A stretch of 64,000 nt of DNA from contig JANJGN010000042.1 in NCBI GenBank assembly GCA_026770705.1, forward strand, positions 2,542,001-2,606,000, in the 5' to 3' direction. The translations under genes were made by a program, and so were the position numbers. The stretch is from Isurus oxyrinchus. Its lineage: Eukaryota. This document shows positions 39,308 through 43,526 of the stretch, piece after piece; the stretch's first letter is position 1, and every line of letters begins with the position of its first letter. Under the pieces are notes generated by a model, which was given only the letters and a program-made list of their open reading frames with translations, ran no database searches and was not told where the DNA came from.

Positions 39308-39618
39308 TTATTGTGGTGCATCATCCGACTGTTCTGCTCACCGTGAGCCCCAGTGAAGAAATCACAAGCAGCAGATTTGCAACCGTCGTCTGTTCAATCG
39401 TTGATTTCAGTCCAAATTCAATCAAGGTGAAATGGCTGAAGAATGGACAAGCCATGGCCTCCGGCTTCGTCACCTCTCCCGGCTTTAAAGTGAATGGGAA
39501 CTTCTCAGCGACCAGTCAGTTGACAGTCCCCGCTGGGGACTGGTTCAGTCACACGCTCTATACCTGCCAGGTCACTCATAAAGGGTCACCCAAAGCCGAA
39601 ACATCACCAAACCTGAGG
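39308..39618 (+). CDS. IGHM: IgM Cmu2 exon with an apparent 1-bp deletion near its 3' end
   Basis: TTGCAG acceptor; [38 protein letters not shown] donor at 39619; 311 nt (not 3n). Confidence 0.9.
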
Positions 39619-40079
39619 GTAAGAGACACAACCCGAGAAAGCTCAAGGCCATTCTTGGTGTCAATCTCTTCCAAGCCAAGAAATATTTTGGAATGATTAA
39701 ACGTCAGAGATTGTGTCTTATTTGCCATCTTGCCCATTTGTGTTTCCTTCCAAAGGAAACAAGAACACACTAAAGAAATCCTTTCATTTATAAAGCGCCC
39801 TCCCTAGCATCAGATTTTCCCAAAACACTTAGCAGCCAATGAATGACCGTGGAAATGTGCTCATTGTGGTAAAGTACAATATTCAGCAGCGATTTGCTGC
39901 GCAACAGTCACCAAGACCCTGGGACATGATGCTGACAGGATTTATTTATTTATTTTTTGATTTCATTCTGTTTGTTCAGGGACACATGTTGTCCAGGAAA
40001 TAGACACACTTCAGCTCAGCATTTCGAACGTTTTCTTTTCATTTTTATTTCAAATTTCCAGCAATATTTGGCTTTTAGA

Positions 40080-42150
40080 ACTAAAGAACATTATTGGATT
40101 TGCTGTTGGGGAGAGTTAAACTAACTCAGGAGGAGCGTGGGAACAACGAGAGAATTTCAGCATGTAATAGCATGGATTCTGGGAGAGGCAGCTAACTCTA
40201 AAAGAGGGAATATTCAGTTATTAGATGGAGTCAGGATAAGGGAGCAAGCAATGAATTCTAAATCAGCGTTGCAATGCATGTATATGCATGCATGGAAAAT
40301 AGTTAATAAAATTTGGGAGTTACAGGCACAGATTGCCTTTTGGGATTATTATGATAGGGTGATAACGGAGACCTAATTTAAGGAAGGACAGAATTGGGTG
40401 ATAATTAGTTCTAGTTACAAGATGTTCATAAAAGACAGGAAAGGACACAAACTGGAGGTGGGGTCGTGGTGGCGTTTTTGTTTAAGGAGAGTATTTCAGT
40501 ACTGGCGAAAAATAATGTGTCAGGCGATTCAAGGACAGAACCAATTTGGCTGGAGCAAAGGAATAAGAATGGTGCAATTACATTGCTGGGTGTAATGTAT
40601 GACCGCAATAGCTAGTGGGAAGATGGAGAGGAGCAAGTAAATAACAGAGAGTTGTAAATATCGAGTAGTCATAACGGAGGGGGGAAGGGTACATTACCCG
40701 AATACATACTGGGATAGTAGTATTGTAAGGGGCAGTGAGGGAGCAGCATTCCTAGATCATATTCTGGAGAATTTCCTACAGCAGTGTGTGTCCAGTGCAA
40801 GGAGAAAGGAGGCACTGCTAGACCTGGTTCTTGGGAATGAGGTGGGCCAAGTAAAGAAACTGATAGGAGGGGAGCATTTAGGGGACAGTGATCATTGTGT
40901 CATAAGGTTTAGGATGACGGTGGAAAATGACATTGATCAATCCAGGGTAAGAGCAGCCAACTGGCAGAGAGCAGACTTCAATGGGGCAAGAATGGGCCTG
41001 GGCCTGATAGACTGGAACCAAAGGTTGGTGGGAAAAACAGTAGCTGAACATTGGGCTAACTTCAAAGAGAAGATGGTTTTGGCACAGTCTAAGTATGTTC
41101 CCTCAAAAGAGAAGGGCAGGAGAAACAAGTCCAGAGCTCCCTGGATGGCAAAGGAGATAGAAATTAAGTTAAGGAAGAAAAAATGTGCTTACAACAGGTG
41201 TCGGGTAGCAAATACATTTGAGAACCAAGCTTAATTCAGAAGTTTCAGAAAGGATGTGTAAAAGCAAATACGAGAATCAAAGAGGGATTATGAAACAAAT
41301 ACTGACAGCTAACATAAAAGGAAATCCCAAGGTATTCTATAAGCATATCAATCGTAAAAAGGTTGTAAAAGGAGGAATAGACCGATTAGGGATCAAAAAG
41401 GGGATTTACACATAGCGGCAAGAGGCATGGCTGAGGTGTTAAATGAATACTTTGCAGCTGTCTTTACCTACGAGGTAGATGCTGCCCAGGTTATGGTGAC
41501 AGAGGAGGAAACTCAGTCACTAGAAGGGTTTGAAATTGCTAAGGATGAGGTATTGCATCAGCTGTCGGCTCTTAAAGTGGATAAGTCTCCGGGACAGGGT
41601 GATATTCGTCTAAGAGTATTGAAGGAAGTGAGAGTGGAATTGCAGAGGCACTGACAATAATCTTTCAGCGTCCCCTGCATTTGGACGAGGTGTTAAAGGA
41701 CTGGAGAATTGCAAATATTACGCCCTTGTTCAAAAAAGTTTGTAAAGGTCTTCCCTGCAATTACAGACGATTCAGTTTAACTTCGGTGGTGGGGAAACTT
41801 GTGGAAACAATTATTCCGGATGGAATTAATATCATGTGGGATAATGTAGATTGATTAGGAAGAGTCATCATGTATTTATTAAAGGAAAATCCTGTATAAC
41901 TAACTTGCTGGAGTTTATTCAAGAGGTAACAGAGATGGTTAATGAAGGCAAGGCCATTGATATGGTCTATTTGGATTTCCAAAAGGCTTTCGACACAATG
42001 CCACACAACAGACCTGTGAGGAAAGTTATAGATGATGGAATTAAAGGGACAATAGCTAACTGGATAAATATTTATATATATAAATGATGTAGATCTTGGT
42101 TTGCAGGGGGCAATTTAAAGGATTGTGGAGGATGCAAAACTTGGGAGAAT
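40080..42150 (+). mobile_element. Decayed CR1 LINE ORF2 (APE endonuclease + N-terminal RT) in the Cmu2-Cmu3 intron
   Basis: LLDLVLGNE..LGDSDHCVIRF; KSRAPWM; KGKSCITNLLEF..DMVYLDFQKAFD; frameshifts and stops. Confidence 0.9.
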
Positions 42151-43220
42151 TTGGAGAAAGGTGACGTCACACTGACAAAGCAGGCATTCCTGGGCCTTAA
42201 CAGTTGATGTTGAAGTCGGTACCTCCCACAATACAATACTCACCCAGTACTACATTGCTGGTATCAACTACACTTGTGTTCAAACATCTGGAGTGGGGAT
42301 TGAACCCATGTTCTTTCTGAATCAGAATCCCCCGTTGTTCAGGATTCCATTAGCTCACAAAACACGGTGACATTTTGTTCAAAAGTTAGACAGTGAGTGG
42401 GGAGTCAATGGTTTTAGTTTTATCCGAAATTGATTGTGAGTTGGATCGGTGTCTGCAGGCCTTTAGTGGTAATTGCCCACGACTTCAATTCTGACAAAGA
42501 TGTGCACTTTATTTCTGCTGCTGTTTTCAGTCTGAGCAGCGCTGACAGCAGTTTGCATAGTCTCGGCTGCATTTCTTTGAGTACAATAGTCTAATGAGTG
42601 ATCGAATTGCGGTGTTTCGGTTAATTAATAAAGTGGGGAGAAAATGCTTAGTCCTCCAAATTAGAGATAGGAAAATAGTGAGGAAGCCGATTTTGGCAAC
42701 ATTTTCCTCACACTGTGAAATATTATCACTTTCATTTTCCCCAAGAATTTCTGAGGCTGGGAATCAATTGACATTTCAAAAAAAGAGATGAACATTTTTT
42801 TTTTGAAAATGTTATCGCACATGACAGAACGGGGAGGATAAATGGGGTTAAGGCACACATTATTCTTACAGAGAGACATAGAGAGCTGAATGGTCTCCTC
42901 CTGTGCTGTTAGCATCTATCATTCCCTGATTCCTTGATTTCGGGACGAGTAATATTCTGACTGTAAGACCATTGTACCTGAATTTATTCACATTGTTGGA
43001 CCGGCATTTGGTTTAGTCATTCCCACTGGTTCTGGCTGGAAATACACAGGGAATGTTATGGAGTCTCCCGGAATTATTGCAAGTCATTGACCTTCAAACA
43101 ATGAAGGCGTTAACAGGGCAGGGGGAGATCAGGTAAATATTCCTGTCGTGAGAGTGAAAGCTGAATACCGGATTTCTGATTCTGATGATGTTTTGGTTGA
43201 CATTCATTTCTGCTTCACAG

Positions 43221-43526
43221 TTTCCGACTGCAACGACCCCGTAATTACTCTACAGCCGCCGCCAATAGCACAGGTCTTACTAGAGGCGACAGTGACCTTA
43301 ACCTGTATCGTGAGTAACGCCCCTTATGGAGTCCTCGTGTCCTGGACACAAGAACAGAAGCCTTTGAAATCAGAGATTGCTGTCCAGCCGGGAGAGGATC
43401 CTAACAGCGTGGTCAGCCACCTGAACATCTCAACACAAGCCTGGCTGAGTGGGGCTGAGTTCTACTGCGTGGTGAGCCATCAGGATCTGCCGACTCCTTT
43501 AAGAAATTCCATCCACAAGGAAGAAC
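43221..43526 (+). CDS. IGHM: IgM Cmu3 exon
   Basis: TCACAG acceptor; [51 protein letters not shown] donor; 306 nt. Confidence 0.95.

What the first reader, a model, noticed from the sequence alone, without database searches (positions are those of the whole stretch)
39308..43244. Single-base frameshift confined to Cmu2 of an otherwise intact IgM cluster: pseudogene, error, or a route to a 3-domain IgM
Seen: the Cmu2 exon is 311 nt and ends in phase 0, whereas the other domain exons are phase 1. Adding one G at GGG 39583-39585 restores ..[14 protein letters not shown] and phase 1. As written, splicing to Cmu3 gives FPTATTP-stop (TAA 43242-43244). All other exons, RSSs and splice sites look intact. 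Known: nurse shark IgM1gj lacks Cmu2. Inference: skipping this exon (Cmu1 to Cmu3) keeps frame and would give a 3-C-domain IgM from a rearranging locus. The exon also retains only the two intradomain Cys.
Basis: partly seen in the sequence, partly recalled or inferred. Interest (0 to 1): 0.7.

Follow-up and report, generated by a model that had tools for sequence, protein, structure and literature searches.

The report
Broken shark IgM gene, one-base deletion
One of more than a hundred copies of a shark antibody (IgM) gene has lost a single base in its second constant exon, a loss shared with the next copy along the chromosome, and it is most likely an ordinary dying copy rather than the source of a new, shorter antibody.

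Summary
In detail: Cmu2 (39308-39618) is 311 nt, one purine short at 39580-39585, giving a stop at 43242-43244; the rest of the cluster is intact. An assembly error is unlikely: the same deletion is in exactly one other copy, the neighbouring cluster 65 kb on, which differs at 11 other Cmu2 sites. The assembly holds 116 Cmu4 matches. At least 23 of 50 related loci are damaged, and one-exon lesions hit Cmu3 more often than Cmu2 (7 against 4). Cmu2 splice sites are unchanged, two Cys is the norm (40 of 40), and the sister copy has also lost a recombination-signal CAC. Verdict: likely a young null copy, silenced by nonsense-mediated decay. For the skipping idea: all 5 private exon changes in the pair lie in Cmu2, but a Cmu3-broken cluster shows the same pattern. 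Side result: this IgM subfamily carries an IgW-type V. No earlier scan note on this lesion was found.

The parts
30896..30941 (+). Leader exon (46 nt, phase 1); its sequence resembles IgW leaders more than the named IgM leader
31067..31407 (+). V exon (31067-31368, open) and 23-spacer RSS (31369-31407); V groups with IgW V regions
31764..31843 (+). D1 (31792-31805) between 12- and 22-spacer RSSs
32160..32229 (+). D2 (32188-32201) between two 12-spacer RSSs; intact here, 3' heptamer reads CAT instead of CAC in the sister cluster
32554..32640 (+). 23-spacer RSS and J segment (32593-32640), IgM-type WGQGTMVTVTA
38099..38398 (+). Cmu1 exon, 300 nt, open; 80% identical to horn shark IgM C1
39308..39618 (+). 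Cmu2 exon, 311 nt, frameshifted in its last 13 codons; splice sites as in intact paralogues
39580..39585 (+). Site of the one-purine deletion (AAAGGG; paralogues have seven purines); shared only with the cluster at G000:C42:2646946
39385..40284 (+). Tract over Cmu2 and the following intron about 3% different from all sister clusters, against about 1% elsewhere; likely a conversion or unhomogenised tract
43221..43526 (+). Cmu3 exon, 306 nt, open in its own frame; holds the premature TAA at 43242-43244, 282 nt before the Cmu3/Cmu4 junction
44025..44416 (+). Cmu4 exon with secretory tailpiece ending CQ-stop; membrane-form donor after 44354
49626..49902 (+). TM1 (49626-49753) and TM2 (49894-49902), open

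Best explanation
This is a shark IgM heavy-chain cluster with a one-base deletion in Cmu2, shared with its nearest neighbour cluster, and it is likely a young non-functional copy in a large family that gains and loses members. Shown: the deletion, the early stop 22 nt into Cmu3, the intact rest, the sharing, and the high rate of damaged loci. Inferred: the deletion arose once in the germline and reached both copies by tandem duplication or gene conversion. Inferred: the cluster can still rearrange, but its normally spliced mRNA carries a stop 282 nt before the next exon junction and would be removed by nonsense-mediated decay. It would give no membrane heavy chain, so a B cell that tried it would move on to another cluster.
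For: Exact patterns find the deleted form at 2 places in the 4.98-Gb assembly, this cluster and one 65.4 kb downstream; the intact form at 36. These two are the closest of 29 neighbouring pairs; two random errors among 49 Cmu2 copies would hit this pair 1 time in 1176. They differ at 11 Cmu2 sites and 1.7% over 20.6 kb, are identical over 39519-39674, and share one more allele found in no other locus (38864). The family is large: 116 Cmu4 and 105 Cmu1 pattern matches. Of 50 loci of this subfamily, 21 have a C-region lesion and 2 more a V frameshift only. Lesions confined to one C exon: Cmu3 7, Cmu2 4, Cmu1 1, Cmu4 1. The other 7 Cmu2-damaged loci all have a frameshifted V as well (V assigned by proximity). 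The Cmu2 acceptor (60 nt) matches 3 of the 4 intact sister clusters printed, and the donor is the form found in 39 of 49 loci. The sister copy has CAT for CAC in the D2 3' heptamer (1 of 36 loci) and two changes in the D1 3' nonamer; that CAC is needed for RAG cleavage is recalled knowledge. Contigs of 4 runs guessed to be RNA show Cmu1-Cmu2 joints in 4 of 4, Cmu2-Cmu3 in 2 of 4, and the intact purine run in each contig listed at the site, so four-domain splicing exists in this subfamily. IgM pseudogene clusters are known in nurse shark (PMC5192425 section 6.1; PMC2435157 passages). Decay of IgH mRNAs with stops upstream of constant-exon junctions is described in mammals (PMC7072976 passages).
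Against: Private exon substitutions in the pair: 5 in Cmu2, 0 in Cmu1+Cmu3+Cmu4 (47 loci compared; P = 0.0005 by length). Zero in the other exons has P = 0.03 at the rate of broken loci and 0.087 at the rate of intact loci, a likelihood ratio of about 3 for continued selection. The window's own cluster has no second lesion. Nonsense-mediated decay in sharks is extrapolated from mammals. No reads from the assembled animal were laid.
Confidence: 0.78

Rival explanations
1. The cluster makes a three-constant-domain IgM by skipping the dead Cmu2 exon, with Cmu1, Cmu3, Cmu4 and TM still under selection.
For: Cmu1-Cmu3 keeps frame and keeps the Cys at the start of Cmu3. All 5 private exon changes of the pair lie in Cmu2, 3 of them replacements. 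A Cmu2-less IgM exists in nurse shark (PMC4279169 section 2; PMC5192425 passages). Nonsense-associated skipping is described for Ig V exons in mammals (PMC7072976 passages).
Against: Splice sites are unchanged. Five changes exceed even the neutral expectation (0.95; P = 0.003), so release from selection alone does not explain them; they sit in a divergent tract that runs 670 nt into the intron, and 3 of 5 are CpG transitions. A cluster broken in Cmu3 (C49:2614632) shows the same pattern, 5 in Cmu2 and 0 elsewhere. The sister copy has lost an RSS CAC. The stop lies in Cmu3, not in the exon to be skipped.
Confidence: 0.08
2. The missing base is a homopolymer error of the assembly.
For: The site is a run of purines. 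No laid read or contig was positively shown to carry the deletion: 26 of 41 raw reads over the site from another sample show the extra base and the rest are unclassified. This cluster's private allele at 39487 was in 0 of 61 raw reads and in no contig of run X1.
Against: Only the two nearest neighbours have it, 2 against 36 intact pattern matches. They share a second private allele and an identical tract around the site while differing on both sides. The raw reads amount to 1.15x of the genome, so a given cluster is missed 32% of the time, and they come from other samples.
Confidence: 0.06
3. The cluster is dead as a constant region but still yields something: its VDJ is used on another cluster's constant region by shark-type switching, or a cryptic acceptor in Cmu3 restores the frame.
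For: V, D, J and RSSs are intact. Switching between clusters is reported (PMC5192425 section 6.1; PMC4279169 section 2). AG acceptors at 43256, 43274 and 43286 would restore frame after the 311-nt exon; the first has 9 of 14 pyrimidines, like the weaker true acceptors.
Against: Switching is described as hypermutation-mediated; a cell whose only rearrangement is non-productive would probably not reach that stage (inference). The V protein is identical to that of an intact cluster (C38:2574183), so it adds no diversity. The cryptic route would lose the last strand of Cmu2, the first strand of Cmu3 and the Cmu3 Cys, and would likely misfold (inference).
Confidence: 0.08

Closest known systems
Elasmobranch IgM heavy-chain minicluster (V-D1-D2-J-Cmu1-4-TM), including its pseudogene copies in nurse shark
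   Same: One V, two D, one J within 2 kb, four C1-set exons, secretory tail and two TM exons; C domains 71-86% identical to horn shark IgM. Many clusters with some pseudogenes (PMC5192425 section 6.1).
   Different: Cmu2 is frameshifted. The V and leader are IgW-like, 55% or less identical to the V of the genome's other IgM group and 65-66% to the V of its IgW clusters. The neighbour lies 65 kb away, against 120 to over 200 kb in nurse shark.
Nurse shark IgM1gj (Rumfelt 2001; paper not held, features read in PMC4279169 and PMC5192425)
   Same: Skipping Cmu2 here would give the same domain layout, V-C1-C3-C4.
   Different: IgM1gj has a fully germline-joined VDJ, lacks Cmu2 and is a major neonatal serum protein. 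Here V, D, D and J are unjoined, Cmu2 is present with normal splice sites, and no skipped product was seen.
Nonsense-associated altered splicing and nonsense-mediated decay of Ig transcripts (PMC7072976, passages)
   Same: A frameshift puts a stop upstream of a constant-exon junction.
   Different: Described in mammals for V exons after somatic rearrangement; here the lesion is germline, in a constant exon, and the stop falls in the next exon.

Membership tests
Elasmobranch IgM heavy-chain cluster | One V, D segments, one J with RSSs, then one set of C exons | tested here: met
Elasmobranch IgM heavy-chain cluster | Four C domains closest to named IgM, with secretory tailpiece and TM exons | tested here: met
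   C1-C4 61-94% identical to named or IgM-like shark chains against 26-42% to IgW-like chains; human mu among the best solved-structure hits
Elasmobranch IgM heavy-chain cluster | V region of the canonical IgM V group | tested here: not met
   V falls with IgW V regions, support 99/98; grouping with IgM V has p-AU 0.044, borderline
Functional IgM gene | Open frame through Cmu1-Cmu4 with standard splicing | tested here: not met
   stop at 43242-43244
IgM1gj | VDJ fully joined in the germline | tested here: not met
   V, D1, D2 and J are separate with intact RSSs
IgM1gj | Cmu2 absent from the product | tested here: inconclusive
   exon present with normal splice sites; no cluster-specific RNA available
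IgM1gj | High expression in neonatal serum, pairing with a germline-joined sigma-2 light chain | not testable with these tools
   needs protein or tissue data
IgM pseudogene (null copy) | Disabling lesion real in the germline | tested here: inconclusive
   strongly favoured by sharing with the neighbour; not confirmed by reads
IgM pseudogene (null copy) | No functional product | not testable with these tools
   no RNA of this cluster; indirect signs

The most novel reading that the evidence does not exclude
A rearranging shark IgM cluster with an IgW-type V has disabled Cmu2 and now makes an IgG-like three-domain antibody by skipping that exon, catching in the act the first step by which IgM1gj-like and IgG-like heavy chains lose Cmu2.
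Probability: 0.08. Interest if true: 0.7.

Novelty: new member of a known kind. Interest (0 to 1): 0.25.

Why it matters
As a null copy it matters little: it is one of at least 23 damaged loci among 50 examined, though it shows a frameshift shared by neighbouring clusters. If skipping were shown, it would give a diverse three-domain IgM and a living intermediate for the loss of Cmu2. The side result may matter more: about 50 IgM loci of this genome appear to be IgW-type leader and V joined to IgM D, J and C in the germline, which bears on how shark isotypes exchange V regions.

Tried and rejected
Sequencing runs: no RNA holder listed; best holders share under half of the words, so none is clearly the assembled animal. 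Raw reads of one other sample (3 runs, 1.15x in all): could not show or exclude the deletion; contigs of run X1 showed none of this cluster's alleles at 39487, 39507 or 39518, a weak hint that the haplotype is not fixed (88% of the run read, some records filtered). Contigs of 4 runs guessed to be RNA: no Cmu1-Cmu3 joint among the 15 of 82 joint rows shown; contigs show presence, not absence, so this is not counted as evidence. False tandem duplication of two haplotypes: rejected as the sole cause, since only part of the 65 kb is repeated and the pair is no closer than other sister clusters. A closer donor for the divergent tract: none among 40 scored of 1314 candidates, best 97%. A Cmu2-deleted IgM group: the short Cmu1-Cmu4 spacing on C26, C140, C151, C152 and C210 suggested one, but all 18 loci fetched have Cmu2; about 45 further loci were not fetched. 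Rescue by a cryptic donor in Cmu2: 5 in-frame GT sites, all cutting the domain short and scoring 2-6 of 9. Cys loss as a sign of decay: rejected. One search used exon borders off by 1-2 bases and was redone; one search timed out and was redone. The IgM1gj sequence did not come up in two protein searches, so orthology to it was not tested. No structure was predicted. Primary papers not held: Rumfelt 2001, Lee 2008 (46), Rumfelt 2004 (73, 76), Zhu 2012 (77), Zhang 2013 (78); they may already describe IgW-like V on IgM or the origin of IgM1gj.

Full report
Observation. The window holds one complete immunoglobulin heavy-chain cluster on the + strand: leader 30896-30941, V 31067-31368, D1, D2, J 32593-32640, Cmu1 38099-38398, Cmu2 39308-39618, Cmu3 43221-43526, Cmu4 44025-44416, TM1 and TM2 49626-49902. 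Pfam calls one V-set and four C1-set domains. The C domains are 71-86% identical to horn shark IgM, so this is a shark IgM cluster; I did not determine the species. Cmu2 is 311 nt and ends in phase 0. Normal splicing gives a stop at 43242-43244, 282 nt before the Cmu3/Cmu4 junction. Cmu1 joined to Cmu3 stays in frame.

Is the deletion real? Of the 30 best Cmu2 matches aligned, 28 have seven purines at 39580-39585 and 2 have six. Two exact patterns, anchored on either side, find the six-purine form at 2 places in the assembly: here and 65.4 kb downstream; the intact pattern finds 36. The two clusters are 98.3% identical over 20.6 kb. They differ at 11 sites in Cmu2 and 10 just after it, but are identical over 39519-39674, and they share one further allele seen in no other locus. 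They are the closest of 29 neighbouring pairs; two independent errors among 49 copies would fall on this pair 1 time in 1176. A germline deletion spread by duplication or conversion is the simplest reading. Reads did not settle it. Three raw runs of another sample gave 41 reads over the site, 26 with the extra base and 15 unclassified, at 1.15x genome coverage. This cluster's private allele at 39487 was in 0 of 61 reads and in no contig of run X1, which may mean the haplotype is not fixed.

Context. The assembly has 116 Cmu4 and 105 Cmu1 pattern matches, some probably haplotigs. I fetched 50 loci of the window's subfamily and 19 others. Of the 50, 21 have a stop, frameshift, broken splice site or missing exons in the C region and 2 more have only a frameshifted V. 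Lesions confined to one C exon fall in Cmu3 7 times, Cmu2 4 times, Cmu1 once and Cmu4 once; several are shared by descent, so events are fewer than loci. The other 7 Cmu2-damaged loci all have a frameshifted V too (V assigned by proximity for those outside the fetched stretch). One lesion in an otherwise intact cluster is therefore the ordinary look of a young pseudogene here, with no bias to Cmu2.

Tests of the skipping idea. Splice sites: the 60 nt before Cmu2 match 3 of the 4 intact sister clusters printed (the fourth differs slightly), and the donor is the form in 39 of 49 loci. Cysteines: 40 of 40 open Cmu2 exons have two, and the Cys at the start of Cmu3 is in all 50, so the Cys count says nothing. 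Sister copy: its D2 3' heptamer begins CAT, the only one of 36 loci, and its D1 3' nonamer has two changes; that CAC is required for RAG cleavage is recalled. RNA: contigs of 4 runs guessed to be RNA, 2 under the same species label as the best DNA holder, show Cmu1-Cmu2 joints in 4 of 4 and Cmu2-Cmu3 in 2 of 4, with the intact purine run; these come from other clusters and say nothing on this one.

The result against my reading. Comparing 47 loci (3 dropped: a probable haplotig, a poorly aligned locus, the orphan), the pair has 5 private substitutions in Cmu2 and none in Cmu1, Cmu3 or Cmu4 (P = 0.0005 by length). Four things weaken it. Five is above the neutral expectation of 0.95 (P = 0.003), so relaxed selection alone does not account for it. 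In the window's cluster the changes lie in a tract, about 39385-40284, that is 3% different from every sister and extends into the intron; no closer donor was found. Three of the five are CpG transitions. A cluster broken in Cmu3 shows the same 5 and 0 pattern in Cmu2. Zero changes in the other exons favours continued selection by only about 3 to 1.

Mechanism. Shown: lesion, stop position, intact remainder, sharing, base rates. Inferred: the cluster rearranges like its sisters; its mRNA is a target of junction-dependent decay, as described for mammalian IgH (PMC7072976, passages); no membrane chain forms, and the cell tries another cluster, as nurse shark B cells carry non-productive rearrangements beside one productive one (PMC2435157, passages). 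I put this at 0.78, skipping at 0.08, assembly error at 0.06, and rescue by switching or a cryptic Cmu3 acceptor (43256) at 0.08.

Comparison with what is known. IgM1gj lacks Cmu2 and has a germline-joined VDJ (PMC4279169, passages and section 2 part 1; PMC5192425, passages and section 6.1). This cluster fails the joined-VDJ test and keeps the exon, so it is not IgM1gj, though a skipped product would have its layout. IgM pseudogene clusters are known in nurse shark. Searches were seen as listings only; PMC12227049 as passages. The primary papers on IgM1gj, nurse shark IgM groups and switching were not held, and no supplements were read.

Side result. The V of this subfamily is nearly invariant (mostly 90-100%) and its best named hits are IgW or long IgW-like chains. 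It is 65-66% identical to V genes on C88, where IgW C1 was found downstream of 2 loci, and 47-55% to the V of the genome's second IgM group. In a tree of 25 V regions it sits on the IgW side of a 99/98 branch; forcing it with IgM V gives p-AU 0.044, borderline, and the groups were named after a first tree. J and C are IgM-type. This suggests a germline IgW-V/IgM-C hybrid that has expanded to about 50 loci. Whether it is already described I could not check.

Earlier scan notes. Two notes on orphan IgM tails elsewhere in this genome agree with high turnover; I saw one orphan myself. None concerns this lesion.

Verdict. Observation confirmed, error unlikely, most likely a young null IgM cluster. 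Interest 0.25, of which part rests on the IgW-type V.

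Noticed in passing
window 30896-31368; about 50 loci on G000 C38, C42, C49, C20, C100 and small contigs: The subfamily's V is 65-66% identical to V genes on C88 (IgW C1 found downstream of the 2 loci checked far enough) and 47-55% to the V of the other IgM group. It falls with IgW V regions at 99/98; grouping with IgM V has p-AU 0.044. J and C are IgM-type, so this looks like a germline IgW-V/IgM-C hybrid family. Not seen in the listings of searches or the passages read; key primary papers were not held.
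   Followed up: partly
G000:C42:2637276-2662103 (L035-L038): Sister cluster: same Cmu2 deletion, D2 3' heptamer CAT instead of CAC, two changes in the D1 3' nonamer, and patches (V, intron after Cmu2) that resemble other clusters, as after gene conversion.
   Followed up: yes
G000:C126:1159171 (L133-L135, L150): Orphan Cmu3-Cmu4-TM: homology starts 267 nt before Cmu3; no V, J, Cmu1 or Cmu2 in 23 kb upstream.
   Followed up: partly
G000 C38:9530975, C38:11200957, C126:329641, C20:76729704: Four loci have D1 and D2 joined in the germline with the same junction.
   Followed up: no
G000 C26, C140, C151, C152, C210, C2606 (L151-L170): A second IgM group with compact constant regions (Cmu1-Cmu4 motif spacing 2.2-2.9 kb against 6 kb), extra Cys in Cmu1, and a Cys near the end of Cmu2 in 12 of 18 loci; more diverse than the window's group.
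   Followed up: partly
G000 C152:529908, C210:713467, C26:31130172 (L183, L184, L186): A further IgW-like V family lies among the second IgM group; no IgM or IgW C1 was found in the 10 kb fetched after each.
   Followed up: no
window 54076-54159 (-) and 62365-62437 (+): A tRNA-Ser(CGA) gene and a tRNA-like sequence with a TTA anticodon; both lie in stretches that are repeated beside the sister cluster.
   Followed up: no
window 54878-59770: About 4.9 kb present here and absent at the matching place of the sister cluster, with inverted 2-kb repeats found elsewhere nearby; likely a mobile element.
   Followed up: no
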